64,000 nt of DNA from Candidatus Buchananbacteria bacterium (GTDB taxonomy: Bacteria > Patescibacteriota > Patescibacteriia > Buchananbacterales > UBA6539), in the NCBI GenBank assembly GCA_041663485.1, contig JBAYMO010000001.1, positions 11,023-75,022 on the forward strand, in the 5' to 3' direction. Made by a program: the position numbers and the translations under genes. The notes below the pieces were generated by a model, which saw only the letters and a list, made by a program, of their open reading frames with translations, was not told the DNA's origin and did no database searches. Each line of letters begins with the position of its first letter. The stretch's first letter is position 1. This document shows positions 6,944-55,959 of the stretch, in pieces.

Positions 6944-6985
6944 ACACAAAAAAATAGTCCCACCAAGGCGAGACTATTTTTTTTA
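6944..6985. terminator. Bidirectional intrinsic terminator; terminates greA on the minus strand.
   Basis: Stem atagtc/gactat with a 12-nt loop, flanked by an A-run upstream and a T-run downstream. Confidence 0.55.
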
Positions 6986-6999
6986 ATACCTGAAATATC

Positions 7000-7458: not shown

Positions 7459-7520
7459 AGTAGTAAAAGGCTTAAAAAAAATACAGTTTTTTTAAGAGCT
7501 GTAAAAATTTTATTTAAATA

Positions 7521-12328: not shown

Positions 12329-12364
12329 ATTTTGGCTTATTTTAAACGTTTTAATTAATTACTG

Positions 12365-12393
12365 TTGACATGATATTGATAATATGTTATGAT
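12365..12393 (+). promoter_or_regulatory. Sigma70 promoter (TTGACA-17-TATGAT) driving the GC-rich RNA island
   Basis: ttgaca at 12365-12370, tatgat at 12388-12393, spacer exactly 17 nt. Confidence 0.6.
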
Positions 12394-12399
12394 TATTTT

Positions 12400-12850
12400 T
12401 GTTCTCAACTTAATGGTGAGTTTGAGAATAGAACCAAAGGGCCAACAACTAACAGAAGGGGTTGTATTAATGGCCGCGTTATCGAAACGCCAGGCAAAAA
12501 TCCTGGCACGTTCCAAGATGATTGGGGAAGGCCGGAAACCGGTTCAGCCGCGGCACCTACGCCTGCCGCGACAACAAAAAGTCTTCTCCAAGAAGGCTGA
12601 CCCCGAACGGGTGACGCCAGACGAAGGCGTCTTGGGCCTTGGAATATTCCCTGGCGGCAAATCGCGCGCGCAGATTGCAGCAGCGAGCTTCTACCTCGCC
12701 GCGGAAGGCCTGAAAGGGTCTATTCGAATGAAAGGCGAGGGGCGCTCGCGCCTCGTCACCATCCCCATCGCTGCCTAGCCAGCAGCGACGAGCTTAAAAG
12801 CTCACCCGGAGCCGATTGACTACCCTGTCCGTCGGCTCCTTTCCTTTTCC
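12400..12850 (+). ncRNA. Large structured ncRNA of about 440 nt, candidate RNase P RNA (bacterial type A-like, reduced)
   Basis: About 58% GC in an AT-rich genome. Upstream promoter; terminal hairpin ggagccga/tcggctcc followed by a T-run at 12808-12850. Tandem hairpins CCAGGCAAAAAUCCUGG and CCGGAAACCGG resemble P8 and P9. ACAACAAAAAG resembles CR-III. GGGUGAC followed by the hairpin GCCAGACGAAGGC resembles CR-IV. ACCCGG lies near the 3' end. CR-I and P4 are not cleanly recognisable. Confidence 0.45.
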
Positions 12851-33160: not shown

Positions 33161-33415
33161 CTACTCCCCTTCAATCTCCACCAGCTTCCAGGTGCTGCCC
33201 GCTACCGGTCTGATTTCAATTTCTGCCATTTTAGCCGGAGTTTGACTGGCCAGCAATTTCAAATTATAGGCTAAATTTTCTGGATTTATCTCCTGACTAT
33301 GCTCAACAACAGAGCCAAGTTCAATCACTATTTTTTTTATTTCTTTGATTTTGTTTTCGGCCGCCTTTTCTAAAACTAATTTCAAAATCAAATCGGCCGC
33401 GTGAAGATCATGCAT
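33161..33415 (-). CDS. hypA: HypA-like hydrogenase nickel-insertion protein lacking the C-terminal CxxC zinc finger
   Basis: The start was moved to the internal ATG (MHDLHAADLILKLVLEKAAENKIKEIKKIVIELGSV, which fits the HypA N-terminal domain). There are no Cys residues. It lies 15 nt downstream of the large-subunit stop. Confidence 0.5.
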   Translation of the reverse strand: MHDLHAADLILKLVLEKAAENKIKEIKKIVIELGSVVEHSQEINPENLAYNLKLLASQTPAKMAEIEIRPVAGSTWKLVEIEGE

Positions 33416-33432
33416 AAAAAAATAATTATTAT

Positions 33433-34719
33433 TTAATGAGTCGCGCAAGAAATGCAAGGATCATACGCGCGAATCATAGCTCGAATTTTTTGTTCACGTT
33501 CCGTCGCATTCATCTGAGCCAAGCCTGGCATATACGTCATTAAATCCTGTTCAATATTATTTAAAAATTGAACCGTCGGTGTGATAATGTCGGCTTTGAC
33601 AATAATACCATTCTCATCGATTCGCAACATATCATACAATATGCCCCGAGGCGCTTCCATAATTGAATATCCGGTTCTAACTTTACCCAAAGGATTGGCG
33701 CCGGCAATTAAATTTAATTTCTTAGCCAAACTTTCTTCGGGTTTTAAATTTTTAATTATGTCTTTTAATAATAATCCGGCGGTTTCTGTGGCATGAACTA
33801 ACTCAATGGCTTGAGCCAAGACGTTGTAAAAAGTATTATAAATGGGAAATTCTAATTTTAAATCAGCTACCACCTTTTTGGCCAAAGGGCTGAGCCGATT
33901 GTGATTAATATTTAATCTGGCTAATGCGCCCACCATAAAACTCTTACCTTTATAATTGGCCCGCTTGGCTGCCGTGGCCAACAGCTGGTATTCATCAATG
34001 GCTTTACCGTAGTGATTAGCGCCAATAATCTTGCCTGATAAAAATTTTACTTGCCCGTCATAAATAGCATATTCTTTACTATTTACCAAACAGGCATATT
34101 CTTGTTCTCGATAAAAATTTGGTATGGGCATTCTCGAAGCAAATAAAACCAGATTCATCGCCGATTCCATGGCTTGTTCCCAGTCGCCTAGAATCTCTTG
34201 TAATTTTTTCTTTTTAGGCAAAACTTTGAAACCGCCAACCTCACAGGCAATCGGATGAACGGCGCGGCCGGCTACCGCTTCTAAAATCGCTAAAGCAAAT
34301 TGTCGACTATTAATAGCCGCCTGGGCTTCGGTGGGGTGATTTTTAATAAAATCAAGATCATCTTTGACGCCATAAAAATCCGGCATGGATAAAAAATAAA
34401 GGTGCAAAGCGTGACTATGGATGACCTGGCATAATTCCATTAATTTTCGCAACCTAACTGTTTGGTCGCTGGGATGTAAATTAAAAGCGTCTTCAATACA
34501 CTTGATAGTATTTAAAGAATGAACAACCGGACAAATACCACAAATCCTGGCGGTAATAATCGGCACATCACTATAGTGCCGACCAACCAAAATGCTTTCG
34601 ATTAATCTCACACCCTCAGTAGTTTTTATTTTGGCCGCAGCCATGTCACCATCAAAAATATCACCAATAAAATCGGCATGACCTTCCATTTTCGCCAGAT
34701 GATTAATGACTATTTTCAT
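33433..34719 (-). CDS. hydA: NiFe hydrogenase large subunit (group 3, sulfhydrogenase alpha-like)
   Basis: 428 aa; N-terminal RICGICPVVH and C-terminal DPCISCATH. The protein ends at the His with no extension. Confidence 0.85.
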   Translation of the reverse strand: MKIVINHLAKMEGHADFIGDIFDGDMAAAKIKTTEGVRLIESILVGRHYSDVPIITARICGICPVVHSLNTIKCIEDAFNLHPSDQTVRLRKLMELCQVIHSHALHLYFLSMPDFYGVKDDLDFIKNHPTEAQAAINSRQFALAILEAVAGRAVHPIACEVGGFKVLPKKKKLQEILGDWEQAMESAMNLVLFASRMPIPNFYREQEYACLVNSKEYAIYDGQVKFLSGKIIGANHYGKAIDEYQLLATAAKRANYKGKSFMVGALARLNINHNRLSPLAKKVVADLKLEFPIYNTFYNVLAQAIELVHATETAGLLLKDIIKNLKPEESLAKKLNLIAGANPLGKVRTGYSIMEAPRGILYDMLRIDENGIIVKADIITPTVQFLNNIEQDLMTYMPGLAQMNATEREQKIRAMIRAYDPCISCATH

Positions 34720-34731
34720 AAAATAATTTTA

Positions 34732-35568
34732 TTACTTTTTAACAATCAAATCCTTTGGCGTTTGTTCAGAGCGCCATTCTTTTTGAGCCTGATCCAACCA
34801 GTCATCCTTGACCCCAAAAACTTCTAAAACTTTTTTTACTTCAGCGGCGTCATGGCCGGCCAGAAAACAATTTTTAACAAACTTATCAACGTCGGGTTCT
34901 TCCAATAATCCACGGCAACCCCAACAAGGCTGTTTGCTATTCAAACACACCGCATTGCAACCACCCAAAGTAATTGGTCCACAGCATAAATCACTATTTT
35001 GCAATAAACATTCATTGCCGTTAAATTGACATTCCAAGCAAACTGGATTTTGAGCAATGAAGGGTTTCTTGCCGGCCAAAATCTGCAAAACAATATTTAA
35101 AAACTCTTCACCGTTGATCGGACAAGTCGGAATTGTAAAATCAACTTTGACAATTTTGTTAATTGGTAAAATATCTAAATTATCAATTCCTTCCGGTTTT
35201 TCATAAACCTCGCCTAAGGCTCGATATCGTCCTACCCAATTTTTCATCCGATGAATACCGCCGGTATGAGCACAGTTGCCCAAAACAATTAGCATCTTGG
35301 ATTTTTTTCTAAGTTCCTTTAATGTTTTTAAATTATTTTTTGTTACCACTGAGCCTTCCACAAAACAAACATCAAACGGCCCAAGCTCGGGCGGATCTTC
35401 TTTGACAAACCTCCATTGAACCAAATCAATTCTTTTGGCCAATTCCAAAAATCTCTGGCCTAAATCCAAAATAGCGAATTCGCATCCCTCGCAACAAGTC
35501 AGGCCAATAATTCCCACTCTCGGTTTAGCAATTTGATTAGACTTAGACGAAAATATTTTTTTAAACAT
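34732..35568 (-). CDS. hydD: NiFe hydrogenase small subunit (delta-like)
   Basis: 278 aa; GLTCCEGCE proximal-cluster motif and additional Cys clusters. Confidence 0.8.
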   Translation of the reverse strand: MFKKIFSSKSNQIAKPRVGIIGLTCCEGCEFAILDLGQRFLELAKRIDLVQWRFVKEDPPELGPFDVCFVEGSVVTKNNLKTLKELRKKSKMLIVLGNCAHTGGIHRMKNWVGRYRALGEVYEKPEGIDNLDILPINKIVKVDFTIPTCPINGEEFLNIVLQILAGKKPFIAQNPVCLECQFNGNECLLQNSDLCCGPITLGGCNAVCLNSKQPCWGCRGLLEEPDVDKFVKNCFLAGHDAAEVKKVLEVFGVKDDWLDQAQKEWRSEQTPKDLIVKK

Positions 35569-36340
35569 ATAAATTAGCTAGATTTAAATTATACTTAGTC
35601 CATTTCTCTAAATTTTGTTTTTGTTCTTGAGATAAATAATCGCAAACCCAACCCCAATGAATTGATACAAAATCCCCAACTTTCAGCTCAGCCACAAATG
35701 ATTTATTATTTACTTCAAGCCAAACCTCCCTTTCAATCGGCTCAGCCAAAACTAATTTATCGCCCGCAACCGCTAACGGTTGGTATTCAATAATAATTCC
35801 TTTGGTTAAATTATTTAAATCCTTAATTTCTGATTTCTGTTCTTTAACTTTTCCCCACCCAATCCGACATTCATCCATGGTTTTAATGGTATGCTCCAAG
35901 GGATAGTGGCCGGTTCGTTTGGGAATATTTAAAACATGAAAACTGTGATGCGGCTTGGCTCCAACCGGAATTTTGCCAAAAATTTTTTCGACCAGGGCGG
36001 GTTTAAGTTTCTTTTTTAATTTTTGTTCATCAACTAAATACTGATAAAAATTTTGCATGGAAACATTTTCCAATAATTCATTGCCCAGCCAATAAGCCTC
36101 AACCACTTTATAATCAAACGGGTCAAGAATTTTATTTGCCTCAGCAATTAAGCGCAAATACGGAAACATGGTTTCAAATTCCCTTAACATGTTTTTCAAG
36201 CCATCATCGCTGACGGCTTGGGCCGCATATTCAAACAGTTCGGCATTGCTATCCCCGCCGCAATAACGCAGCTTATTGGGCATAAAAGCGTAACGGGCGG
36301 CTAATAGGACTCCATCTGAATTTCTAATATTATCCGACAT
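35561..36340 (-). CDS. Hypothetical protein, first gene of the hydD-hydA unit (8-nt overlap with hydD)
   Basis: 259 aa with no recognisable motif. Its stop overlaps the hydD start, which suggests translational coupling. Confidence 0.5.
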   Translation of the reverse strand: MSDNIRNSDGVLLAARYAFMPNKLRYCGGDSNAELFEYAAQAVSDDGLKNMLREFETMFPYLRLIAEANKILDPFDYKVVEAYWLGNELLENVSMQNFYQYLVDEQKLKKKLKPALVEKIFGKIPVGAKPHHSFHVLNIPKRTGHYPLEHTIKTMDECRIGWGKVKEQKSEIKDLNNLTKGIIIEYQPLAVAGDKLVLAEPIEREVWLEVNNKSFVAELKVGDFVSIHWGWVCDYLSQEQKQNLEKWTKYNLNLANLYV

Positions 36341-36361
36341 TAATTTTTTTCTAAATTTTAC

Positions 36362-37267
36362 TTAATTTTCCTGAATAATTTTTTTAACCAAAAACTTTTT
36401 TTCAAAAATCAAAATGCAAGCAACACCCCCTAAAATAATTATCAATCCCATAAATTTTTCAACCGCTAATAATTTGTGCGTCACAAAAACCGAATTCAAT
36501 ATGGTCGTTACTGGCGACGCTAAAACTAAAATGCAAGCCGTTAGCGTCGCTGGCATCATTTTTAGACCGCGATACCAAGTTATTACATAAGCCGTCAAAA
36601 GAATTGAAGCGAGTAATAGCCACGACCACTGGACTGAATTTAAATTGGTTAAGCCGGACAAATCATTGGTCAGCCACAAAAATCCCAAAAGAAACCAAGC
36701 ACCGAAAAACATTCTCCCCCAGGCTACCACCAAAGAGTCCAATTTAAACAAAGTTTTTTTGACAATCACTGTTTCCGTGGCCCAAAACAGCGTAGCCAAC
36801 AAAATCAAAGTTTCGGCCAGACCCCAGCTCAAACCCTTGAAACCTTCAAACACCATATTGCCATAAAGTAAAACTCCCAAGGCAACAAATTGCCACCAAG
36901 AAACTTTTTCTTTCAAAAATGGCCAGGCTAAAATTGCCACCCAAACAAATAATGTTTTGTGAATAAATGAAGCACTAGTGGAAGAAGTCAAGCTTAAGCC
37001 CTTAAAAAATAACAAAAAAGGAATACTACCGCCAATCAAACCAATCAGGGCTAAATTTAACCAATCTTTAATTTCTAACAGTTTTAATTTCCTAAAAATC
37101 CAGGGAGATAAAATAACCAAAGACAAGACCAAGGCGACTAAAATATTTTTTAGGGTTGTGTATTGAAAAGAATCCTTACCGACCACGCTCATGGCGAATT
37201 TATTAAAAAAATTAGCCAATCCGGAAATAATTGCCGTAATTAAAACTAAATAAAAACCTTTTTTCAT
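36362..37267 (-). CDS. EamA/DMT-family transporter
   Basis: 301 aa with about 10 TM helices in a duplicated EamA layout. Confidence 0.7.
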   Translation of the reverse strand: MKKGFYLVLITAIISGLANFFNKFAMSVVGKDSFQYTTLKNILVALVLSLVILSPWIFRKLKLLEIKDWLNLALIGLIGGSIPFLLFFKGLSLTSSTSASFIHKTLFVWVAILAWPFLKEKVSWWQFVALGVLLYGNMVFEGFKGLSWGLAETLILLATLFWATETVIVKKTLFKLDSLVVAWGRMFFGAWFLLGFLWLTNDLSGLTNLNSVQWSWLLLASILLTAYVITWYRGLKMMPATLTACILVLASPVTTILNSVFVTHKLLAVEKFMGLIIILGGVACILIFEKKFLVKKIIQEN

Positions 37268-37272
37268 AAATA

Positions 37273-37464
37273 TTATTTTAAATATTCGTTAATCTCTTTG
37301 GCTTCTTGATCAGAAATTTTAGTTAAAGCCAAATTGGCGTTAGCCAAAACCCAATCTCCAGCTTTAACTTTTTTTATCAAAGCAACATTAATCATTCGGC
37401 CATCAGCTAATTCGGCCACCTGTCCATTAACCTTTTTAATTTTTTGCGGCTTGGTTAAACACAT
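37273..37464 (-). CDS. hypC: Hydrogenase maturation chaperone HypC/HybG
   Basis: 63 aa starting MCLTKP (MC(L/I)xxP signature). Confidence 0.8.
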   Translation of the reverse strand: MCLTKPQKIKKVNGQVAELADGRMINVALIKKVKAGDWVLANANLALTKISDQEAKEINEYLK

Positions 37465-37750
37465 AAATTACTACCCGGCCAAGAAAAAATAAAATACTAA
37501 AAACCAATATTACCCCCAAAACTCCGGCCAGACTTGAAGCCAGCCAAGTTTGGCCAATACCGGGAATTAGATATTCAGAAAAAAGACCGGGGAAATAATT
37601 ATTACTTTTTTGTATAAAACCCAAATTCTCCGCCACATACTCCAAACCATCGGGAAAAGAAAAAGCTGCTAGTGAAACCACGCCGCCGCAAAATAACGAA
37701 AACAATAATATCTTATTCCGTCTTTTCATAAAAAAATAATTTGATGGCAA
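37436..37750 (-). CDS. PDGLE-domain small membrane protein (CbiN/NikN-like auxiliary component)
   Basis: 104 aa containing FPDGLEYVAENLGF. Confidence 0.6.
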   Translation of the reverse strand: MPSNYFFMKRRNKILLFSLFCGGVVSLAAFSFPDGLEYVAENLGFIQKSNNYFPGLFSEYLIPGIGQTWLASSLAGVLGVILVFSILFFLGRVVIYVFNQAAKN

Positions 37751-38417
37751 AAATAGTTATTATGGCTTCAGCCAAACCAATTAAGACATGGACTTTTAGC
37801 ATCGCCCAAAAAACTAAATTAAAAGAAATGTTGCCGGATAATCCAAGTTCAACCGAACAAGCCGTGGCAGCCAAAACTACTGAAAGCCAACTGGCCAAAC
37901 CAATGGCTAAAAATTTATTATGACTCTTTTGATAAATATAAGAATAAATTAAAAAACTAAACAACACGCCAATTATTCCCATATTAAAAATATTGGCACC
38001 CAAAGCGATTATGCCCCCATCCGAAAAAACCAAGGATTGAACGGCCAAAACCGATGCAATAGCCAATAACCCGGTCCAAGGTCCTAAAACAACAGCCGCC
38101 AAAACTCCGCCCAAAAAATGTCCGGAAGTTCCATACTGCACCGGAAAATTCAGCATCTGCAAAGCAAAAATAAATGACGCCACCAAAGCCAGTTGTTCAA
38201 CTTTTTTGTTCGCTTGATTTTTGGCTCTGAATTTGGTCAAAAATTCAGGTGAACAAAATTTTTGTCCAATATTGGTTTGGATCTGGGGCAATAATATTTT
38301 GACTTTTTCAAAGTTTGAATTAAAAAAATTTTTAAAAGCCTGACCTAAAAATCCGGCGGAAACCGCCGCTAAAATAAAGCTGGTCTGATTGGACAAAAAT
38401 TGATCAGGCAAATGCAT
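37713..38417 (-). CDS. cbiM: CbiM/NikM substrate-capture component of an ECF-type Ni/Co transporter
   Basis: 234 aa; N-terminal MHLPDQFLS, the MHIPDG-type signature. Confidence 0.8.
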   Translation of the reverse strand: MHLPDQFLSNQTSFILAAVSAGFLGQAFKNFFNSNFEKVKILLPQIQTNIGQKFCSPEFLTKFRAKNQANKKVEQLALVASFIFALQMLNFPVQYGTSGHFLGGVLAAVVLGPWTGLLAIASVLAVQSLVFSDGGIIALGANIFNMGIIGVLFSFLIYSYIYQKSHNKFLAIGLASWLSVVLAATACSVELGLSGNISFNLVFWAMLKVHVLIGLAEAIITIFAIKLFFYEKTE

Positions 38418-38437
38418 AAATATTTTTTTAAATTGGC

Positions 38438-38578
38438 TTATTTTTTCTTAAAAATCATGGCAATACCAATGACTAATACCGCCATCGGCCAAACGATATC
38501 CCAGTTAACCCCGGGAATCATGCCAAGATTTTTCATCAAAAAAATTGCACCAATCACGACTAAAGCAATACCAAACAT
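38438..38578 (-). CDS. Small two-TM membrane protein (46 aa, DUF5668/LiaF-N-like)
   Basis: Unlisted ORF MFGIALVVIGAIFLMKNLGMIPGVNWDIVWPMAVLVIGIAMIFKKK. Confidence 0.4.
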   Translation of the reverse strand: MFGIALVVIGAIFLMKNLGMIPGVNWDIVWPMAVLVIGIAMIFKKK

Positions 38579-38594
38579 AAAACAATATTATTTA

Positions 38595-38684
38595 TTATTT
38601 TTTCTTTTTCTTAGCAGCTGGTTTCTTTTTTTTGGCTGGTGCTTTCTTGCTCGCACAGCCGCTGCAACATGAACAACATGGCAT
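38595..38684 (-). CDS. Putative 29-aa cysteine-rich, lysine-tailed peptide
   Basis: Unlisted ORF MPCCSCCSGCASKKAPAKKKKPAAKKKKK located 21 nt downstream of the 610-aa gene. Its start codon is in a locally GC-rich patch. No SD. Confidence 0.3.
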   Translation of the reverse strand: MPCCSCCSGCASKKAPAKKKKPAAKKKKK

Positions 38685-38705
38685 AAGATTATATATAATT
38701 AATTA

Positions 38706-40538
38706 TTAAATTATTCCTTCCCGAACCAGCATCCTGGCGTGTTCCCGCGGTAGAAATACTTCATTCTCGCGCCAATCAACTCGATTGCAAAATTCCAATA
38801 CCGATTTTTTTACCCATGTATCAATTATTTTTTCCGGCGGTAATTTGGTTAAATATTGCATTTTCTTATCACCACTTTTTTCGATATCTTCGGCAACTTC
38901 CGCCTGATGATCGACTAGTAAGACCTCACGGTAATAATTGCTTATTGTATCTTCAAAATTACTTTCAAATCCCCCGAAATGCCGGCCGCTGGCGATAATA
39001 CCAGGAAAAACTTTCGCAATCTCCCTTACTATTTCACGTTCGCGTCGCCGGCTGTCTTCCTCATCGGACCAAGCGTCCGTGCCAACACGTTTAAAAATGA
39101 CATTATATTTTTTTCTCAAAATATTTTTTACTAAATCAGTCATTTCAGTCGAGGACGGCACAAATTCAATCTGATCATTCTCACTATTTTTTGCCAAATT
39201 TTCTTCAGCCAGTCCGGTAGAAATTACGGTAGAATTTTTTGGAATTTTAATTCCCAATTTATTTGGATCAACCACCCAATATGTATCAGCCGGCATAAAA
39301 TTAGCCATTACACCATTTTCTTTTACCATTTGACCCAATGGCGCAAGAATACCAATATTACTTTTATCCCATTCCCCAGGGCCGATAAATCCCGCCGTGG
39401 CAATACCGTCGATGGCAAAATGCTCGGTAATTCGTCCAACTTTATTGCCAGTGGCCCCAGAATGCGTCGGAATTATCCAGTCGCCCGATTCCTGATCAAA
39501 GATTGGTTCATAGGCCGTCATGTGAATTGCGACGTGCTGGTCAAGCGCCTCAACCAAACGCTCCGGAATTTCCACTTCTTCGCCATTTTTATGGCGCTCA
39601 ATAAAATCTTCGAGATCTGCGATTACAGAAGAAATTTCTACGGCCTGTTTGCGAAAATTTTCTTTTTCATATTCCATCTTTGATTTAGATTCCGATTCTT
39701 GGATACTAGTTAAATTGATTTTATATCCAGCTAACACTAACTTACATTGACGAACCAGAAAAGGTGGCGAAAAATGTTTTTTCTTTTCTAATTCTTGCTG
39801 TAAATCCGCTGATATTCTTTTGTCGCCTAACAACGCCTGCAAAATTAGATTCCTGGCATTTTGAGAATTATCTCTTAAAATGCCGCTTTCATCAAAACTT
39901 AAAGCAATAATCATATCTTCCAAAACTTCGGTTTTTACCACATCGATTTCCGAGGCTGAAAACTGACCTTCCGGGAAAGAATTTCTGATCATGACCGCCA
40001 AGTCAGCCAATGACTTAGGCTGGCCATCAGCAACAAAAACGGCGCTACCTTTACTTGCGGCTTTCCTTAAATTATCCAGTTCGGCTTTTCTTAGGCCGGT
40101 TTTTGGTTTGGGATAATCCGCTTCCGATGGATTAATCCGGTATTCTTTAAAATTATATCCACCGGCCCTACACTGATAGTTGACATTAACCTGAGGATGA
40201 TATGGTTTAGTATATTCTCCGCTGAGATTTATATCATAAACCGCAGCGGCACTTTTTTCTAGACTAACTTTATTTTCCTTGATTTTTTCCGGCTCCCTGG
40301 CGTAAGGCACATCGCCGACCATCACTGCAACTTTATCTTTTACCATCTCCGGATCAAACAAATTTTCCTGGTCTTTGAAATAAACCGAAATTCTGGCATC
40401 ACCAATCTTATAAACATATTCGTTATACTGCAAACCGCTACTGTCTTGGCGTTCAATTGTTTCTACTTCAAACTTCGGCTGGGGCTCCACCTCAAACCCG
40501 ACTTCAGCTAAATTTTTTGATATTTCTCGACGCTCCAT
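38706..40538 (-). CDS. Hypothetical 610-aa soluble protein embedded in the hydrogenase/nickel operon
   Basis: Long ORF with no recognisable signature, lying between hydG and the Ni-transporter genes. Confidence 0.6.
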   Translation of the reverse strand: MERREISKNLAEVGFEVEPQPKFEVETIERQDSSGLQYNEYVYKIGDARISVYFKDQENLFDPEMVKDKVAVMVGDVPYAREPEKIKENKVSLEKSAAAVYDINLSGEYTKPYHPQVNVNYQCRAGGYNFKEYRINPSEADYPKPKTGLRKAELDNLRKAASKGSAVFVADGQPKSLADLAVMIRNSFPEGQFSASEIDVVKTEVLEDMIIALSFDESGILRDNSQNARNLILQALLGDKRISADLQQELEKKKHFSPPFLVRQCKLVLAGYKINLTSIQESESKSKMEYEKENFRKQAVEISSVIADLEDFIERHKNGEEVEIPERLVEALDQHVAIHMTAYEPIFDQESGDWIIPTHSGATGNKVGRITEHFAIDGIATAGFIGPGEWDKSNIGILAPLGQMVKENGVMANFMPADTYWVVDPNKLGIKIPKNSTVISTGLAEENLAKNSENDQIEFVPSSTEMTDLVKNILRKKYNVIFKRVGTDAWSDEEDSRRREREIVREIAKVFPGIIASGRHFGGFESNFEDTISNYYREVLLVDHQAEVAEDIEKSGDKKMQYLTKLPPEKIIDTWVKKSVLEFCNRVDWRENEVFLPREHARMLVREGII

Positions 40539-40594
40539 ATTAAATACTCAATTATTATTTATTGTTGATTAATTACCCTTTTGATCGGTATATT

Positions 40595-41413
40595 TCAAAC
40601 TGTCCCCGGGATATCTTTTAACTGAGCCCAAGAAAAAATCGGACCATCTTTACAGACATAATAAGGACCAATGGCGCAATGCTGACACACACCAACACCG
40701 CAATACATCTTTCTTTCCAAAGAAATATAAATATCTTCGTCTTTTACCCCCTGTTTCTTTAAATTTTCTATAACCGGTCGATACATTACCGGCGGACCAA
40801 CAACCAAAGCCACGGTATTGGCAAAATCCTGCTTTTTATTAAACAAAACCGTAATCACTCCGGTTGGACCCTTCCACTTTTTTGACGGGCTAGCCAAAAC
40901 CACATCCAAGCCAACTTTTTTTTGCCACTGACAGAATTCACGCTTAAAAAGTAAATTATGTTCATCCTGACAACCATAAAAAACATTAACTTTATTGGCA
41001 GGCAATTTACCGGCCAAAAAATCCAAAACAATTGAACGCATGACGATAAATCCCGAACCACCGCCCACCAAAAGCAAATCTTTCCCTTGGGTCATTTTCT
41101 CTGGCAAACCGTTACCAAATGGTCCCCTAACCGTTGCTTGATCACCAACATTTAGCTCGTGTAATTTGGTAGTTAAAGTACCCACTTTTCTGATAGCCAA
41201 ATCAAAAGTTTTAGTTTGACTGGCCGAGGAACAAATATCAAAAGCCGCCTCACCGTGATTTAGCAAACCAAGCATTAAAAACTGGCCATGATTAAAGGCA
41301 AAATTTATTCTGTTTTTTCTTTCAATAAACTCAAAAGTAAAAAGTTTAATGTCAGGCGTTTGCTCAACAATCTTTATCACTCTGACTAATTTTGGGATAT
41401 ACAAATTATGCAT
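40595..41413 (-). CDS. hydG: Hydrogenase gamma subunit / PyrK-like FAD-NAD(P) oxidoreductase with a 2Fe-2S cluster
   Basis: 272 aa; ferredoxin-reductase fold and C-terminal CGVGVCQHC...C. Confidence 0.75.
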   Translation of the reverse strand: MHNLYIPKLVRVIKIVEQTPDIKLFTFEFIERKNRINFAFNHGQFLMLGLLNHGEAAFDICSSASQTKTFDLAIRKVGTLTTKLHELNVGDQATVRGPFGNGLPEKMTQGKDLLLVGGGSGFIVMRSIVLDFLAGKLPANKVNVFYGCQDEHNLLFKREFCQWQKKVGLDVVLASPSKKWKGPTGVITVLFNKKQDFANTVALVVGPPVMYRPVIENLKKQGVKDEDIYISLERKMYCGVGVCQHCAIGPYYVCKDGPIFSWAQLKDIPGTV

Positions 41414-41417
41414 TGAT

Positions 41418-42404
41418 TTATTTAATCTTGCCTTTTAAAATTCTCTGCAAATTTTCTTTAATATCAATACCCACCGGACAAACTTTTGTACAACGACCAC
41501 AGCCGACACATCCGGGCAAAGAAATATCGTCGGGACAGCGGACAAATTTATGTTCATACCAAAATCTAATCCGACTCATAGTATTCGATAAAAATTTTGG
41601 TTTTTTTGAATCAATTTCCAAACCGGCCACTTCGGAAAAATCCGTATAAAAACAAGTAGTTTGCAACCGACAACGATCGCCACAGCCAGAGTTTAGTCCG
41701 GGCTGATCGCTAATATCAAAACAGAAACAGCACGGACAAATTACCGTACATTTGCCGCATTCAATACAAATTTTTCCCAGATCTTCCCAAATTTTATTAT
41801 CCTCATAAAACTTTTCTCTGATTTTTAACATCTGTGGATCTTTGCCTTCTTCTCTGATTGGTCCGACATATTCAACGTGATCGTAATTTTTATAACCAAA
41901 ATCGTCTAAAATTCGCTGCCCATCTTCTGAGCCGGTATAAACCAAATATTTGTCTTTACAAACAGCCAAGAATATATCAAATTTTAAATGCTCCAGCATG
42001 TCCTCTTGAAACTTTGCCAGAAAAAATTGCGTTCTCTCAGCGGGCACCAAACTATGACCGACAATCAAAGTGTTTTTTACGCGCTCCTGAAAGTAAGGAT
42101 CTTTGGCAAAAATTTGATTCAAAAAAGTTACTGCCTTTAAATCAACTACGGTCAGACCAAAAATCACTTGTTTAGGCGAGGTAAAATTCTGTTTAATTTG
42201 GTTTTTTTGATAAGAAAAAAGCACCTCTTTGGCAGGTACTAAAATTCGTTTAAATGAATGCAGAGGCAATTCATTAGTTAATTCAACTTTTTTGGGATCA
42301 TCAACTGTTTCCATGACCAATTCACCGTTAATTCTTTGCGGTGCCCAAACAATATTTTGTTGGGACAAATACTCAATAAATTGACGCAATTGTTTATTGG
42401 TCAT
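41418..42404 (-). CDS. hydB: Hydrogenase beta subunit (HydB/AsrA-like Fe-S protein)
   Basis: 328 aa; CIECGKCTVICP and CVGCGRCTKVCP, i.e. two 4Fe-4S motifs. Confidence 0.75.
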   Translation of the reverse strand: MTNKQLRQFIEYLSQQNIVWAPQRINGELVMETVDDPKKVELTNELPLHSFKRILVPAKEVLFSYQKNQIKQNFTSPKQVIFGLTVVDLKAVTFLNQIFAKDPYFQERVKNTLIVGHSLVPAERTQFFLAKFQEDMLEHLKFDIFLAVCKDKYLVYTGSEDGQRILDDFGYKNYDHVEYVGPIREEGKDPQMLKIREKFYEDNKIWEDLGKICIECGKCTVICPCCFCFDISDQPGLNSGCGDRCRLQTTCFYTDFSEVAGLEIDSKKPKFLSNTMSRIRFWYEHKFVRCPDDISLPGCVGCGRCTKVCPVGIDIKENLQRILKGKIK

Positions 42405-42564
42405 ATCTATTTTATTATAACATAAATTCAGAATATAACCAAGGAATAATTTACTAAAAAATTACTTCTTGAAAATAATTTTAAGCTTACCTGATTGACA
42501 AATCAATCTAGCCGGCATAATATGGCCATAGAATCTTTGCTGCTCTTTACTGGAGGGAACTAAC

Positions 42565-42783
42565 GTGGCAAAACAAACCGATACCTGGATAGAGGCCTGT
42601 CCAAACTGCGGCACCGAAGCCACATTAACACAATGGGCTTGCGGCTGCATCACCTGGACCTGGAAATCTGAAGATGTTAATAATGGGGGGCATAGCCGTA
42701 AATGTCCGACCGGAGACTTCTTTTCCAAAAGAGCCCACCTGTGCGCTGAGGGAAAAAATCCACATAGGCCATTGGAACATTAA
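42565..42783 (+). CDS. Cysteine-rich small protein (72 aa, zinc-ribbon-like) with a GTG start
   Basis: GGAGGG SD 6 nt upstream of the GTG. Motifs CPNCG...CGC...KCPTGD...C. Intrinsic terminator at 42784-42814. An antisense ORF at 42462-42728 overlaps it. Confidence 0.45.
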   Translation: MAKQTDTWIEACPNCGTEATLTQWACGCITWTWKSEDVNNGGHSRKCPTGDFFSKRAHLCAEGKNPHRPLEH

Positions 42784-42814
42784 CCCAACAAAACCGTAGT
42801 TGGGCTATTTTTTT
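42784..42814 (+). terminator. Intrinsic terminator
   Basis: Stem cccaac/gttggg with a 9-nt loop, followed by T8. Confidence 0.6.
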
Positions 42815-42831
42815 AATTTTAATTATATACT

Positions 42832-43317
42832 TTATTTATATTTATTTTTACTTGAAGCATTAAATTTAACCACCCCATCTAATATCCCCTGTTTAAATAA
42901 TTTCTCCCGCAAAATCAAATCATTTTTTCGTGAGTAAATAAATTTCAAATCTTTGACTAAATTCAACTCTACTATTAGCTCTTTTTTGGTCAATTTTTTT
43001 TGCTTAATAAAATTAATATAACAATTTTGATATTGTTTAACTGTTTTACAGTTTAAGTAATTTTGCGATCCAAATATTTTTTTATCTTCGGGCGTAGCTA
43101 AAACTAAACAAGTAGTAAACTTGTCGTTTTTCTTATTTTTTAATAAATTATAAAGCCGACAAGTGGCGCATTGGTTTTTACAATTTCTCACCTCAACACA
43201 ATCATAAATAAAACGATAACCTCGCCAATTGTCTAAAATAACGTTAATAAACCCAGAATATTTTTTTGACAATTTCTTGAATTCAGCTTCTGCTTGTTTA
43301 ATTATTTTTTGATTCAT
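42832..43317 (-). CDS. Hypothetical Cys-containing protein (161 aa)
   Basis: CVEVRNCKNQCATC cluster and native AT-rich codon usage. Confidence 0.5.
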   Translation of the reverse strand: MNQKIIKQAEAEFKKLSKKYSGFINVILDNWRGYRFIYDCVEVRNCKNQCATCRLYNLLKNKKNDKFTTCLVLATPEDKKIFGSQNYLNCKTVKQYQNCYINFIKQKKLTKKELIVELNLVKDLKFIYSRKNDLILREKLFKQGILDGVVKFNASSKNKYK

Positions 43318-43332
43318 AAATTTATACGAATA

Positions 43333-43380
43333 ATTTTTTTAAAAATGGTTGGGACAGTTATCTTGTTATTCTGTCCCAAC
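43333..43380 (-). terminator. Intrinsic terminator of the radical SAM gene
   Basis: 10-bp stem gttgggacag/ctgtcccaac followed by a U-run on the minus strand. Confidence 0.6.
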
Positions 43381-43390
43381 CCAACTCAAA

Positions 43391-44434
43391 TTAGAGGTAC
43401 GCCATGGGGCATAGGGTATAACCCCCGAAAGGATCGCCCATACCTTCGACCGTGGCTCGACATCCGCCGCGACATTTCTCCCATTTGGCACAGGAATGGC
43501 AAGGTTCCTTGACCAGACTTTGATCCAATTTCAAACGATGGCAAATCAAAGGTGATTCGTAGGCTGCCTGAATCGGATTGGTGTCAGAAATTCGAGCCAA
43601 AACCACGGGGCTATTAGTACAAGCCCGAATTGACCCATCTACGGCAAAATACAAACCTTTGTCATAGAACGGGCACGAACCAAAGACATGCGGCATTAAA
43701 ACTTCAGCCGGCTCCAAACCAAACTCCGCTCGAACTGACTGAATGGCCAAAATCATTTCCGCAATCTGCGGCGGCGTTGGCGCCACTTGCCAATAGTCTG
43801 GCCCAATGGTCTCGCCCGAGCCCATCAATTCCAGATCAGTACCAATATTCTGTTGCAAACACCAGCGATAATACTCAGATGCCAAGCCGATATTTTCCTG
43901 ACGAATCAAATTCTGCAAGCGCAAAAGCGGTTGGGTATAACCAGCCTGCTGCAAAATACCAATCGCCTCAATCATCCTTTGCGCTTGAACCTGGCTCTGA
44001 CCAATCATTTTTGCCTGCAAGGGCAGCTGGGTCTGATCGGCCGGATTAATGTTGAGCTTGCCGGTAATGTGAATCTGCCGCTCAAATAACCACTGGGCCA
44101 AGGCCGGAGTAATGGCCAGCATATTGGTAAAAATCCACGGTAGAATGCCCCGCTCAAGCAAAATCTCAATGTACTGGCGCAGATTGGGCCAAAGCAGCGG
44201 ATCGCCGCCCAGCAAATCCATAGTTTCCAGCTCCGAGCCGCGATAATCACGACAAAGATCCAAAACCCTGATCGCCTGATCCAGCGACATCTCGCCATGA
44301 TTCAAAGCCTTACGCCTAACCATGTAACATCCCGGACAAGCGCATTGACATCGACTTGTTACCTCAATAATGCCATAGCGTAAACCACAAGCCTGACCTG
44401 ATTGTAGATAACGATCTTTCTGATTTGTCTGCAT
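43391..44434 (-). CDS. Radical SAM enzyme with a C-terminal SPASM/twitch-like Cys-rich domain
   Basis: CQCACPGC (CxxxCxxC) motif; C-terminal CHSCAKWEKCRGGCRA. The start was moved to the internal ATG preceded by a GGAGGA SD. GC is about 48%. Confidence 0.75.
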   Translation of the reverse strand: MQTNQKDRYLQSGQACGLRYGIIEVTSRCQCACPGCYMVRRKALNHGEMSLDQAIRVLDLCRDYRGSELETMDLLGGDPLLWPNLRQYIEILLERGILPWIFTNMLAITPALAQWLFERQIHITGKLNINPADQTQLPLQAKMIGQSQVQAQRMIEAIGILQQAGYTQPLLRLQNLIRQENIGLASEYYRWCLQQNIGTDLELMGSGETIGPDYWQVAPTPPQIAEMILAIQSVRAEFGLEPAEVLMPHVFGSCPFYDKGLYFAVDGSIRACTNSPVVLARISDTNPIQAAYESPLICHRLKLDQSLVKEPCHSCAKWEKCRGGCRATVEGMGDPFGGYTLCPMAYL

Positions 44435-44471
44435 GGAATGCTTCCTCCAAAGTGTAAAGAGCCTGATTTTT

Positions 44472-44501
44472 GCTAATGCAAAAACCCCGCCACAAGCGGG
44501 G
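44472..44501 (-). terminator. Hairpin plus U-run between the yerC-like and radical SAM genes (terminator or attenuator)
   Basis: ccccgc/gcgggg stem with a uugug loop followed by UUUUUG. It lies within the N-terminal 31 codons of the longest ORF call. Confidence 0.4.
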
Positions 44502-44528
44502 CAATTAGACATTTTTAAAAATCTCAAA

Positions 44529-55233: not shown

Positions 55234-55959
55234 TTATTTTCTTAATTCGCCGTCTTTAGCCGTGCGCCGATGAACAACAACTTCATCCGCCAAAATCAAA
55301 CCGTCGCGAATTTTAATAATTCTGCGCGCGTGGTCGGCCGTGTCCTGCTCGTGAGTAACTAAAATAATAGAATGGCCGCTTTCGTTCAAATCTTCCAAAA
55401 TCGCCATGACCTGCGTGCCTGATTTTGAGTCTAAATTTCCGGTTGGCTCATCGGCAAAAATTACCTTAGGATCATTAACCAAAGCCCGAGCAATCGCCAC
55501 GCGCTGTTGTTCGCCGCCGGACAATTGATTGGATAAATGATTGATCCGATGATACAGGCCGACCGCCTTAACCGCGTCTTTGGCTTTTTCGTCCATGGCT
55601 TTAACGGAAATACCGGAGTAAATTAGGGGCAATTTCACATTTTCCAGAACCGTAGTACGCGGTAAAAGGTTGTAACTTTGAAAAACAAAACCGACTTTTT
55701 TATTGCGCAAACCGGCCAATTCGTCATCACCGAATTCCGCCACGTTGCGGCCTTCAAATTCATAAACTCCCGAAATTGGCCGATCCAAAAACCCCAAAAT
55801 ATGCATTAAAGTCGATTTGCCGGAACCGGACGGACCCATAATGGCCACGAATTCGCCGGCGGCAATTTCAAAACTGACACCGCGTAAAACACTGGTGGTT
55901 ACTTCATCGTTAATATATTCTTTTTTGATATCCGCTAATTTGATTAATGTCTGTTTCAT
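55234..55959 (-). CDS. ABC transporter ATP-binding protein (MacB/LolD-type)
   Basis: 241 aa; Walker [10 protein letters not shown], the LSGGEQQR signature, and Walker B. Confidence 0.9.

What the first reader, a model, noticed from the sequence alone, without database searches (positions are those of the whole stretch)
33161..42404. NiFe hydrogenase supercluster with a split subunit arrangement, nickel uptake genes and several uncharacterised genes in one long minus-strand unit
All genes from hydB to the hypA-like gene are co-directional and have only short gaps. The order is hydB, hydG, an unknown 610-aa gene, a 29-aa Cys peptide, a 46-aa two-TM protein, cbiM, a PDGLE protein, hypC, an EamA transporter, an unknown 259-aa gene, the small subunit, the large subunit and the hypA-like gene. 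The diaphorase-like subunits (beta and gamma) are therefore separated from the catalytic subunits (delta and alpha) by about 5 kb. That stretch holds maturation and transport genes plus three genes with no assignable function. hypD, hypE and hypF are absent from the window.
Basis: partly seen in the sequence, partly recalled or inferred. Interest (0 to 1): 0.55.

Follow-up and report, generated by a model that had tools for sequence, protein, structure and literature searches.

The report
CPR hydrogenase locus with unusual helpers
This is a real nickel-iron hydrogenase gene cluster from a tiny-genome (CPR) bacterium. Its structural genes are split by a conserved but unstudied trio of helper genes (hypC, an EamA transporter, DUF6390), and those three genes may be part of an undescribed way of building the enzyme's metal centre.

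Summary
All 13 genes lie at the stated coordinates, in the stated order, on the minus strand of a Candidatus Buchananbacteria contig.

The enzyme is a four-subunit group 3b [NiFe]-hydrogenase. The 5 kb between hydBG and the catalytic subunits is not one unit but three layers:
- **Conserved trio.** hypC–EamA–DUF6390 recurs next to NiFe hydrogenases in 93 loci from several phyla. It also occurs apart from the structural genes.
- **Recent add-on.** A nickel/cobalt uptake set (Cys/Lys-rich peptide, CbiM, PDGLE) is seen only in the closest relatives.
- **Unrelated insertion.** The 610-aa orphan gene is absent from all 12 relatives.

The maturation kit looks minimal. HypA lacks its zinc domain, and the large subunit ends at DPCISCATH with no cleavable tail. 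No hypB/D/E/F or protease was found in the window or in about 0.9 Mb of related loci.

In sister lineages the same slot holds a HypC::HydE fusion, in one locus (L009) followed by HydG.

Whether canonical hypDEF lie elsewhere in these genomes could not be tested.

The parts
41418..42404 (-). hydB: beta subunit (328 aa), 4Fe-4S dicluster, AsrA/HydB-like
   Evidence: Pfam Fer4_22 2.7e-22. NCBIfam sulfhyd_HydB 2.4e-31 and ShyB 9.8e-30. Conserved in 11 of 12 relatives.
40595..41413 (-). hydG: gamma subunit (272 aa), FAD/NAD(P)-binding plus 2Fe-2S, AsrB-like
   Evidence: Pfam FAD_binding_6, NAD_binding_1 and DHODB_Fe-S_bind. NCBIfam PRK08345 3e-64 and ShyC 4e-52.
38706..40538 (-). 610-aa orphan gene: a lineage-specific insertion, not part of the hydrogenase system
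   Evidence: No Pfam, NCBIfam or PDB match. Only 2 homologues found by the word-indexed search of 5.8e9 proteins. One lies between nrdD and a radical-SAM gene, the other after an M23 peptidase. Absent from all 12 syntenic relatives and all 80 DUF6390 loci. The profile search finds about 10 full-length relatives plus a shared core of about 120 aa in about 160 other proteins.
38595..38684 (-). 29-aa Cys-rich, Lys-tailed peptide (MPCCSCCSGC...KKKKK); inferred thiolate metal-binding peptide linked to CbiM
   Evidence: Read directly. Homologous peptides lie just upstream of cbiM or liaF in L003, L004 and L022. That is 4 of 5 cbiM loci with readable upstream sequence, and none in loci lacking cbiM.
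38438..38578 (-). 46-aa two-TM LiaI/LiaF-like hairpin protein
   Evidence: Pfam LiaI-LiaF-like_TM1 2.2e-10. Conserved between hydG and hypC in L003, L006, L008, L009, L010, L012, L021, L026, L027 and L100.
37713..38417 (-). cbiM/nikM-type Ni/Co uptake S-component (234 aa), N-terminus MHLPD
   Evidence: Pfam CbiM 9.4e-53; NCBIfam CbiM 1.5e-44. Present only in L003, L004, L021, L022 and L024. No ECF T or A component was found next to it. The only ABC ATPase motif in the window is at 55234-55959.
37436..37750 (-). PDGLE-domain membrane protein (CbiN/NikN-like partner of CbiM)
   Evidence: Pfam PDGLE 9.6e-12; weak CbiN match. Found in L003 and L022.
37273..37464 (-). hypC (63 aa), N-terminal Met-Cys retained, Asn in place of E. 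coli His51
   Evidence: Pfam HupF_HypC 2.2e-13. Alignment A4.
36362..37267 (-). EamA/DMT 10-TM transporter (301 aa), conserved partner of hypC and DUF6390
   Evidence: Pfam EamA 2.2e-35. Directly upstream of DUF6390 in 37 of 56 metagenome loci with enough sequence. 46 orthologues at 36-66% identity have near-invariant K40, N41, H103, K104, E120, E165, K170, R185, Y232.
35561..36340 (-). DUF6390 (259 aa): helical Cys/His N-domain plus HypC-like OB-fold C-domain; candidate maturation factor
34732..35568 (-). hydD: small (delta) subunit, 278 aa
   Evidence: Pfam Oxidored_q6 2.9e-23; NCBIfam ShyD 1.3e-41.
33433..34719 (-). hydA: large (alpha) catalytic subunit, 428 aa, RICGICPVVH ... DPCISCATH-stop
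   Evidence: NCBIfam ShyA 4e-70. PDB 5yxy (T. kodakarensis HyhL) 181 bits, P. furiosus SHI alpha 180, Mvh 148, 3d 107. No C-terminal extension in any of 14 clade members.
33161..33415 (-). hypA-like, 84 aa from MHD start: nickel-binding domain only, zinc-finger domain deleted, no Cys
   Evidence: Pfam HypA 4.4e-08, covering profile positions 1-71 of 112. NCBIfam HypA 1.5e-09. Alignment with E. coli HypA shows about 37 residues with both CxxC pairs missing. The 84-aa form is conserved in all 12 relatives.

Best explanation
**What the locus is.** It encodes a cytoplasmic, NAD(P)-linked group 3b [NiFe]-hydrogenase (alpha-delta catalytic pair plus beta-gamma diaphorase-like pair). It is embedded among lower-glycolysis genes (gapdh ... 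pgk, eno), where it most likely disposes of or recaptures fermentation reducing equivalents as H2.

**The 5 kb between hydBG and hydDA is a composite of three layers.**
1. A conserved accessory module, hypC-EamA-DUF6390, that belongs functionally with the hydrogenase.
2. A recently acquired Ni/Co-uptake add-on: Cys/Lys peptide, LiaF-like hairpin, CbiM, PDGLE.
3. An unrelated 610-aa gene inserted only in this lineage.

**Inferred mechanism.**
- DUF6390 carries a HypC-type OB domain that keeps the equivalents of HypC Cys2 (C158) and His51 (H228). It also has an extra helical domain with invariant Cys and His-His-x-x-His.
- I propose that DUF6390 acts with the short HypC as an iron-cofactor scaffold or chaperone for the large subunit.
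- EamA would move a small, probably anionic, metabolite needed for or produced by that chemistry.
- The zinc-less HypA would insert Ni supplied by CbiM/PDGLE.
- No proteolytic finishing step is needed, because the large subunit is made without a C-terminal tail.

**Shown:** gene identities, domain homology, conservation and linkage.
**Inferred:** the roles of DUF6390, EamA and the peptide, and operon status.
For: **Group 3b.** Subunit set and best matches. L1 and L2 motifs are intact.

**Glycolytic embedding is conserved.** The order gapdh-trpR-...-hypA-pgk-SIMPL-eno recurs in L003-L015, L026, L032 and L100.

**The trio is a module.**
- hypC-EamA-DUF6390 is adjacent in the window and in L003, L004, L008, L010, L014 and L015.
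- It is also adjacent where it is detached from, or convergent with, the structural genes (L017, L018, L034, L036, L037).
- In the 80 metagenome loci, EamA is adjacent in 37/56, hypC lies within 1.5 kb in 34/49, and a NiFe large subunit is present in 17/19 loci with at least 3 kb on both sides.

**DUF6390 accompanies several hydrogenase types.** These include 623-628-aa large subunits in high-GC contigs.

**Slot replacement.** In L006, L007, L009, L012 and L100 the same position holds HypC fused to a HydE-type radical SAM (276 bits, above cutoff 254.6). HydG follows in L009 (574 bits). These loci have no EamA or DUF6390.

**None of the DUF6390 loci examined has HydE or HydG.** The search covered the 80 metagenome loci plus L015, L017 and L018.

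**No HypB/D/F in any locus.** This holds across the 80 metagenome loci (about 0.62 Mb), the 12 genome loci plus L015 (about 0.24 Mb) and the window. The only HypE-like ORF is a 112-aa fragment ending PRIS next to DUF6390 in L062 and L064.

**The 610-aa gene is absent in all relatives**.

**The Cys peptide tracks cbiM**.
Against: - Whole genomes could not be scanned, so canonical hypD/E/F/B may exist elsewhere. DUF6390 might then be only an auxiliary, HupF-like chaperone.
- In DUF6390 the HypC-type cysteine is internal, not N-terminal as in every characterised HypC.
- DUF6390 also occurs next to hydrogenases that keep a C-terminal tail, a HycI protease and a full-length HypA (L060, L062). It is therefore not tied to the minimal kit.
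- The EamA substrate is inferred only from conserved Lys/Arg/Glu residues.
- Promoter and terminator scans are near the random expectation, so operon structure is untested.
- No paper in the searchable library mentions DUF6390.
Confidence: 0.62

Rival explanations
1. **Ordinary 3b hydrogenase with canonical maturation elsewhere.** HypB/D/E/F are encoded at another place in the genome. DUF6390 is just a second HypC/HupF-type large-subunit chaperone, and EamA is a housekeeping transporter that happens to be linked.
For: - Only 64 kb of the genome (an 85.7-kb contig) was available.
- The DUF6390 C-domain is HypC-like, and second HypC paralogues (HupF, HybG) are established accessory chaperones.
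- DUF6390 coexists with HycI and full-length HypA in L060 and L062.
Against: - hypC is adjacent to EamA-DUF6390 and never to hypD, across the 80 metagenome loci (about 0.62 Mb), the 12 genome loci plus L015, and the window. In characterised systems hypC-hypD adjacency is the rule (general knowledge).
- EamA orthologues stay adjacent across loci with GC from 28% to 76%, with many invariant residues. That argues against chance linkage.
- A decayed hypE fragment sits next to DUF6390 in L062 and L064.
Confidence: 0.3
2. **EamA and DUF6390 are a nickel supply system.** EamA would be a transporter and DUF6390 a His/Cys-rich metallochaperone standing in for HypB/SlyD, rather than having an iron-cofactor role.
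For: - Invariant HHxxH plus three Cys in DUF6390.
- No HypB-type GTPase in any DUF6390 locus.
- HypA lacks its zinc domain.
- Most loci have no cbiM, so another nickel route is needed.
Against: - The conserved charged residues of EamA are mainly Lys/Arg with two Glu. This is unlike known Ni/Co permeases, although one near-invariant His (H103) is present.
- The window clade added CbiM/PDGLE on top of EamA.
- The DUF6390 C-domain matches the iron-binding chaperone HypC, including the Cys2 equivalent.
- The alternative occupant of the same slot is HypC::HydE (with HydG in L009), which is ligand and iron chemistry, not nickel delivery.
Confidence: 0.15
3. **One obligate 9-kb operon.** All 13 genes, including the 610-aa gene, would work together.
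For: - All genes are co-directional with gaps of at most 56 nt, and several overlap.
- Sigma-70-like sites lie upstream of hydB at 42506-42472, and a weak terminator-like hairpin follows hypA at 33163-33148.
Against: - The 610-aa gene is absent in all 12 relatives and sits in unrelated contexts elsewhere.
- Relatives interrupt the array with opposite-strand genes or with AspRS, and split it into convergent blocks.
- Almost the whole window is on the minus strand.
- Promoter and terminator counts are close to the shuffled expectation.
Confidence: 0.1

Closest known systems
Group 3b [NiFe]-hydrogenases: Pyrococcus furiosus sulfhydrogenase I (HydBGDA) and Thermococcus kodakarensis Hyh (PDB 9e1j, 9e15, 5yxy)
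   Same: - Four subunits with the same domain content.
- The large subunit's best PDB matches, at 180-181 bits.
- L1 and L2 cysteine motifs are present.
- HypA is the nickel chaperone partner (5yxy is the HyhL-HypA complex).
   Different: - The beta/gamma genes are separated from the delta/alpha genes by 5 kb of other genes.
- The large subunit ends at the His of DPCxxCxxH, whereas the 5yxy chain has 4 more residues.
- HypA lacks its zinc domain.
- The locus is embedded in glycolysis genes.
HypC/HybG/HupF chaperone family (PF01455; PDB 2z1c, 2ot2)
   Same: - The Cys2 and His51 equivalents are conserved (C158, H228).
   Different: - The cysteine is internal, preceded by a 155-residue helical Cys/His domain with no known relative.
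- Pfam's HypC model does not hit it.
- A separate short HypC is also encoded.
Canonical Hyp maturation pathway (HypABCDEF plus endopeptidase, E. coli hyp/hyc)
   Same: HypA-like and HypC genes sit next to the structural genes.
   Different: - No HypB, HypD, HypE, HypF or protease in the window or in any related locus.
- HypA lacks its Zn finger.
- No C-terminal peptide to cleave.
CbiMNQO / NikMNQO ECF-type Co/Ni importers
   Same: - CbiM with the N-terminal Met-His motif.
- A PDGLE (CbiN/NikN-like) partner directly downstream.
   Different: - No Q (T-component) or O (ATPase) gene nearby.
- An extra loop of about 45 residues after TM1.
- Preceded by a conserved Cys/Lys-rich 22-29-aa peptide and a LiaF-like hairpin.
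[FeFe]-hydrogenase maturases HydE and HydG (seen in sister loci, not in the window)
   Same: They occupy the same slot between hydG and the small subunit in L006, L007, L009, L012 and L100. Their NCBIfam scores exceed the equivalog cutoffs.
   Different: - HydE is fused to HypC and sits in a NiFe locus, not an FeFe locus.
- It is mutually exclusive with EamA-DUF6390 in every locus examined.

Membership tests
Group 3b [NiFe]-hydrogenase | Large subunit with N-terminal RxCGxCxxxH and C-terminal DPCxxCxxH nickel-binding motifs | tested here: met
   RICGICPVVH and DPCISCATH.
Group 3b [NiFe]-hydrogenase | Closest sequence relatives are characterised 3b enzymes rather than 3a, 3c, 3d or group 1 | tested here: met
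   PDB: 3b 180-181 bits, 3c 148, 3d 107, 3a 83-116. NCBIfam: ShyA 237, HydA 204, VhuA 144, FrhA 129. These are bit-score ranks, not a phylogeny.
Group 3b [NiFe]-hydrogenase | Heterotetramer with an AsrA-like FeS beta subunit and an AsrB-like FAD/NAD(P) gamma subunit | tested here: met
   hydB has Fer4_22 and HydB/ShyB/AsrA matches. hydG has FAD_binding_6, NAD_binding_1 and 2Fe-2S domains.
Group 3b [NiFe]-hydrogenase | Formal HydDB or phylogenetic placement | not testable with these tools
   No classifier or reference tree was available.
Canonical Hyp maturation system | HypC with N-terminal Cys | tested here: met
   MCLTKPQKI....
Canonical Hyp maturation system | HypD, HypE and HypF present | tested here: not met
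   Absent from the 64-kb window and from all fetched loci. Presence in the rest of the genome was not testable.
Canonical Hyp maturation system | C-terminal extension of the large subunit removed by a HycI/HoxW-type protease | tested here: not met
   The protein stops at the His of DPCISCATH in all 14 clade members. No HycI relative was found in the window.
HypA nickel metallochaperone | N-terminal Met-His-Glu/Asp nickel site | tested here: met
   MHD start, conserved in relatives.
HypA nickel metallochaperone | Zinc domain with two CxxC pairs | tested here: not met
   No cysteine in the 84-aa protein. About 37 residues are deleted relative to E. coli HypA.
DUF6390 (PF19927) | Pfam model match above the gathering score | tested here: met
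   197 bits against a cutoff of 25, covering residues 8-256.
HypC/HupF (for the DUF6390 C-terminal domain) | OB-fold homologous to HypC | tested here: met
   [not shown]
HypC/HupF (for the DUF6390 C-terminal domain) | Essential cysteine at the processed N-terminus (position 2) | tested here: not met
   The aligned cysteine is residue 158, internal to the chain.
CbiMNQO/NikMNQO ECF transporter | CbiM/NikM S-component with N-terminal Met-His | tested here: met
   Pfam CbiM 179.5 bits; sequence starts MHLPD.
CbiMNQO/NikMNQO ECF transporter | Adjacent Q (T-component) and O (ATPase) genes | tested here: not met
   None in the locus. The only ABC ATPase motif in the window is about 17 kb away, next to two roughly 410-aa ORFs that were not scanned.

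The most novel reading that the evidence does not exclude
Many bacteria, including most hydrogenase-bearing CPR lineages, may assemble the Fe(CN)2CO-Ni centre of [NiFe]-hydrogenases without HypD/E/F. They would use one of two interchangeable, undescribed modules.
- **hypC-EamA-DUF6390** (this window). DUF6390 would be a single-chain HypC-plus-scaffold protein, and EamA would supply or remove a ligand precursor.
- **A HypC::HydE fusion, seen together with HydG in two of the six loci read** (sister lineages, and a Planctomycetes-labelled locus). This would borrow the tyrosine-derived CO/CN chemistry of [FeFe]-hydrogenase maturation.

A zinc-less HypA and a tail-less large subunit would complete a minimal maturation pathway.
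Probability: 0.33. Interest if true: 0.88.

Novelty: new variant of a known kind. Interest (0 to 1): 0.62.

Why it matters
[NiFe]-hydrogenase maturation by HypA-F is regarded as essentially universal. A conserved three-gene module always sits where hypD/E/F would be expected. In sister genomes it is swapped for a HypC::HydE fusion (with HydG in L009). This gives a concrete, testable handle on alternative routes to the CN/CO-ligated iron centre.

It also bears on two practical questions:
- whether the widely reported 3b hydrogenases of CPR bacteria can be functional in genomes of about 1 Mb;
- which minimal gene set would be needed to express such enzymes heterologously.

The finding also assigns a first functional context to a Pfam DUF with more than 2000 members. 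It flags a conserved Cys/Lys mini-peptide linked to CbiM.

Tried and rejected
**610-aa protein.**
- The exhaustive profile search found a shared core of about 120 aa but no annotated relative. Eight distant members have no Pfam domain.
- Junction comparison for the 610-aa insertion showed only AT-rich TAATTAAT on both sides, which is not interpretable.

**DUF6390.**
- The N-domain against HypD gave no similarity.
- A PDB profile search with DUF6390 gave only sub-threshold HypC hits, E 0.38.
- The afdb50 fold library was unavailable, so taxonomic spread was instead judged from the GC content of 80 loci.

**Window scans.**
- Rfam and tRNA scans of the window found nothing.
- The promoter and terminator scan was uninformative.

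**Literature.** Six full-text searches for DUF6390, CPR hyp genes or a HypC-HydE fusion returned nothing relevant. Kantor 2013 (PMC3812714) confirms only that 3b-like hydrogenases are known in WWE3 and OD1.

**Ideas considered and rejected.**
- That the radical-SAM/SPASM gene at 44527-43391 modifies the Cys peptide. It is 5 kb away, matches no curated family above cutoff, and has no detectable homologue in L003 or L004, which have the peptide.
- That L099's 79-aa HypA is zinc-less. The alignment shows it keeps the CxxC pairs.

Full report
**1. What is there.**
- The exact-match protein P0001 names the source as a Candidatus Buchananbacteria (CPR/Patescibacteria) MAG, on a contig of 85.7 kb.
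- Pfam and NCBIfam identify these genes:
  - hydB (Fer4_22, HydB/ShyB/AsrA-like)
  - hydG (FAD/NAD-binding plus 2Fe-2S, AsrB-like)
  - a 46-aa LiaI/LiaF-type hairpin
  - CbiM
  - a PDGLE protein
  - HypC
  - an EamA transporter
  - DUF6390, which is the "unknown 259-aa gene" (197 bits)
  - the Oxidored_q6 small subunit
  - the NiFeSe_Hases large subunit
  - a truncated HypA
- Gaps are at most 56 nt and several genes overlap.
- Nearly all ORFs of at least 120 aa in the 64-kb window are on the same strand. Co-directionality is therefore weak evidence for an operon.
- Promoter and terminator scans are close to the shuffled expectation.

**2. Hydrogenase class.**
- The large subunit carries RICGICPVVH and DPCISCATH.
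- Its best solved relatives are group 3b enzymes: T. kodakarensis HyhL (5yxy, 181 bits) and P. furiosus sulfhydrogenase I alpha (180 bits).
- These are ahead of Mvh (3c, 148 bits) and the NAD-reducing 3d enzyme (107 bits).
- NCBIfam ranks ShyA above HydA, VhuA and FrhA.
- Together with the AsrA/AsrB-like beta and gamma subunits this supports group 3b. A formal phylogeny was not possible.
- 3b-like hydrogenases in CPR phyla are already in the literature (PMC3812714).

**3. Synteny dissects the 5-kb intervening stretch.**
- Twelve genome loci were found with the large subunit and compared by tblastn and ORF analysis.
- They share this scaffold: hydB-hydG-[variable]-(LiaF hairpin)-hypC-...-small-[variable]-large-[variable]-hypA(84 aa)-pgk-SIMPL-eno. 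gapdh and a TrpR-like gene often lie upstream.
- A 1.05-Mb CPR contig shows the same order, continuing into iPGM, pta, ackA and glucokinase.
- The hydrogenase is thus a stable resident of a glycolysis/fermentation neighbourhood.

Within the scaffold:
- The 610-aa gene is absent from all 12 relatives, including two with 74-75% identical large subunits.
- cbiM occurs only in those two and in three metagenome loci.
- Relatives carry many other inserts at the junctions:
  - a CDP-alcohol phosphatidyltransferase on the opposite strand before the small subunit
  - AspRS between the small and large subunits (L014)
  - a CNNM/CorC protein between large and hypA (L003)
  - 23S-rRNA-IVP proteins
  - a flavin reductase
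- The array is therefore a string of separable modules with insertion-tolerant junctions, not an indivisible unit.

**4. The conserved core: hypC-EamA-DUF6390.**
- DUF6390 has 2045 homologues at E<1e-5.
- In more distant CPR genomes the triplet hypC-EamA-DUF6390 is intact while convergent with the structural genes (L017). In L018 it stands alone, with no hydrogenase within 10 kb.
- Eighty further metagenome loci were retrieved with a DUF6390 profile:
  - EamA lies directly upstream in 37 of 56 loci with at least 1 kb upstream.
  - hypC lies within 1.5 kb in 34 of 49.
  - A NiFe large subunit is present in 17 of 19 loci with at least 3 kb on both sides.
- These loci range from 28% to 76% GC. 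They include large subunits of 623-628 aa with long C-terminal tails, next to a NifU-Rieske protein and a HycI protease in L060.
- The module is therefore not CPR- or 3b-specific.
- The full-text search for DUF6390 returned no paper.

**5. What DUF6390 is.**
- A 30-sequence alignment has invariant C27, H131, H132, H135, C158, H228 and C233.
- The AF2 model (pLDDT 84, pTM 0.85) is an all-helical domain (residues 10-158) followed by an OB fold and a terminal helix.
- Profile-profile comparison with an alignment of locus HypCs gives 95.1% probability (E 3.4e-8). C158 falls on HypC Cys2, and the GDWVS-H-W motif falls on the HypC GDWVL-x-x motif.
- The short CPR HypCs have Asn where E. coli HypC has His51. 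DUF6390 keeps a His there.
- The N-domain has no detectable relative and no similarity to HypD.

**6. A minimal maturation kit.**
- The HypA-like protein starts MHD, so the nickel site is retained. It has no cysteine and lacks the roughly 37-residue zinc-finger insert. The same 84-aa form is found in all relatives.
- All 14 large subunits of the clade stop at the His of DPCxxCxxH, so no endopeptidase step is required.
- No HypB/D/E/F, HycI, HydE or HydG relative is detectable in the window.
- No HypB/D/F was found in the roughly 0.9 Mb of related loci.
- The only HypE-like sequence is a 112-aa C-terminal fragment beside DUF6390 in L062 and L064. It ends PRIS instead of the catalytic PRIC, which looks like a relic.
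- Whether hypD/E/F exist elsewhere in these genomes could not be tested. This is the main open point.

**7. Slot replacement in sister lineages.**
- In L006, L007, L009, L012 and L100 the position between hydG and the small subunit holds a single 416-426-aa protein. It is HypC fused to a HydE-type radical SAM (NCBIfam HydE 270-276 bits, cutoff 254.6).
- In L009 this is followed by a bona fide HydG (574 bits, cutoff 312).
- EamA and DUF6390 are absent from these loci. Conversely, no DUF6390 locus has HydE or HydG.
- The fusion has 1477 homologues. The top 120 nearly all have the HypC + radical-SAM architecture. They include proteins labelled Planctomycetes and Deltaproteobacteria, auto-annotated as "HydE" or "biotin synthase".
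- In a Planctomycetes-labelled contig the fusion sits with a 458-aa radical SAM + BATS protein (HydG-like by length and domain content; not scanned against NCBIfam), HypA, a CobW/HypB-family GTPase and a different NiFe hydrogenase.
- I found no paper describing this.
- Mutually exclusive occupancy of one syntenic slot suggests that EamA-DUF6390 and HypC::HydE (with HydG in L009) do equivalent jobs in iron-ligand assembly. This is an inference, not a demonstration.

**8. The nickel add-on and the peptide.**
- CbiM (N-terminus MHLPD) and PDGLE have no adjacent Q or O components. The only ABC ATPase motif in the window is about 17 kb away.
- The 29-aa peptide MPCCSCCSGCASKK...KKKKK has clear counterparts immediately upstream of cbiM/liaF:
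  - L003: MPCCSCCCGSTKKK...
  - L004: MPCRCSCCGPAK...
  - L022: MPCCCCCGPKKAK...
- It is absent from L021 and from all loci without cbiM.
- It is therefore a real, conserved small gene.
- A thiolate metal-binding role is my inference. It recalls the CxxCGC nickel site at the N-terminus of E. coli HypB, whose N-terminal sequence MCTTCGCGEG is shown.

**9. EamA.** Forty-six orthologues next to DUF6390 (36-66% identity) keep K40, N41, H103, K104, E120, E165, K170, R185, Y232 and K236. This basic-residue-rich pattern fits an anionic or zwitterionic small molecule better than Ni2+. The substrate is unknown.

**10. The 610-aa gene.**
- The word-indexed search finds only two homologues. One lies between nrdD and an nrdG-like radical-SAM gene; the other follows an M23 peptidase.
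- An exhaustive profile search finds about 10 full-length relatives and about 160 proteins sharing a core of about 120 aa. The core motif is VHxTxYxP ... RxTxHFxLNH ... GxW ... NGxP ... DTxW. Hits include proteins of 1221-3359 aa.
- No member examined has a Pfam domain. Neither PDB profiles nor the low-confidence AF2 model identify it.
- It is a context-independent insertion of unknown function.

**11. Verdict.**
- The "supercluster" is best read as a known kind of enzyme (a CPR 3b hydrogenase) in a conserved but undescribed genetic arrangement.
- Its interesting content is the hypC-EamA-DUF6390 module and the pared-down HypA and large subunit.
- The 610-aa gene is incidental.
- The strongest novel reading, HypDEF-independent maturation, is plausible but unproven because whole genomes could not be searched.

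Noticed in passing
L006:6683-7945, L007:6828-8078, L009:4862-6115, L012:5158-6423, L100:10001-11281, L099:10001-11296: - HypC is fused to a HydE-type radical SAM enzyme inside [NiFe]-hydrogenase loci.
- L009 also has a true HydG (6116-7489).
- L099 has a HydG-like rSAM/BATS protein, HypA and a CobW/HypB-like GTPase.
- The fusion has 1477 homologues and is auto-annotated as FeFe maturase HydE or biotin synthase.
- It is mutually exclusive with EamA-DUF6390 in every locus seen.
- No paper was found.
   Followed up: partly
window 38595-38684; L003:5359-5445; L004:4849-4926; L022:6649-6717: A conserved 22-29-aa peptide (MPCC[SC]CC..G followed by a Lys-rich tail) lies immediately upstream of cbiM or the LiaF hairpin. 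It is found in 4 of 5 cbiM loci with readable upstream sequence, and in no locus without cbiM.
   Followed up: yes
window 38706-40538: - The 610-aa orphan shares a core of about 120 aa (HxTxYxP ... RxTxHFxLNH ... NGxP ... DTxW) with about 160 otherwise unrelated proteins, including ones of 1221-3359 aa.
- The core matches no Pfam or PDB entry.
- One homologue lies between nrdD and an nrdG-like gene, another after an M23 peptidase.
   Followed up: partly
window 33161-33415 and the 84-86-aa orthologues in L003-L015, L026-L032, L088, L100: HypA lacks the entire zinc-finger domain (no cysteine) but keeps the MH(D) nickel motif. Full-length HypA with CxxC pairs appears in high-GC DUF6390 loci (L045, L046, L062, L063, L068, L097).
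   Followed up: partly
window 33433-33460 (3' end of the large-subunit gene); 14 clade members: The large subunit is encoded without any C-terminal extension after DPCxxCxxH. Other DUF6390-linked hydrogenases have tails of 7-40 residues (FLKVKWS and similar).
   Followed up: yes
L062:10824-11162 and L064:1907-2245: A 112-aa ORF matches only the C-terminal third of HypE (AIRS_C). It ends PRIS instead of PRIC and lies directly downstream of DUF6390. It looks like a decayed hypE.
   Followed up: partly
L014:8186-9991; L003:8539-9093(-), 11274-12524; L005:6340-6773; L006:11450-11800: The junctions of the hydrogenase array accept unrelated genes in relatives:
- AspRS between the small and large subunits.
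- An opposite-strand CDP-alcohol phosphatidyltransferase before the small subunit (5 loci).
- CNNM/CorC between large and hypA.
- 23S-rRNA-IVP four-helix proteins.
- A recurrent AbrB-like 55-aa ORF plus a conserved 85-aa ORF of unknown function between small and large (7 loci).
   Followed up: partly
L057, L060, L086, L098 (GC 54-70%): DUF6390 (with hypC and EamA in L060) also sits beside 623-628-aa large subunits ending DPCMPCTTH plus a Cys-containing tail. L060 also has a NifU-Rieske fusion and HycI. L086 has a NikA/B-like ABC importer. By subunit length and tail motif these resemble the high-affinity group 1h-type clusters I know from the literature (from memory, not tested).
   Followed up: partly
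window 42405-44527: - The stretch between the TrpR-like gene and hydB is another variable slot.
- It holds a radical SAM/SPASM protein (44527-43391, weak matches only) and a 161-aa orphan (43317-42832). Neither has a tblastn counterpart in the relatives.
- The rSAM ORF's N-terminus (MSNCPACGGVFA) recurs as a 56-aa ORF in L003:2961-3131.
- A 427-bp non-coding gap precedes hydB.
   Followed up: no
window 1-64000: Nearly all ORFs of at least 120 aa are on the minus strand, with negative GC skew throughout. No tRNA or Rfam match was found in the 64 kb.
   Followed up: no
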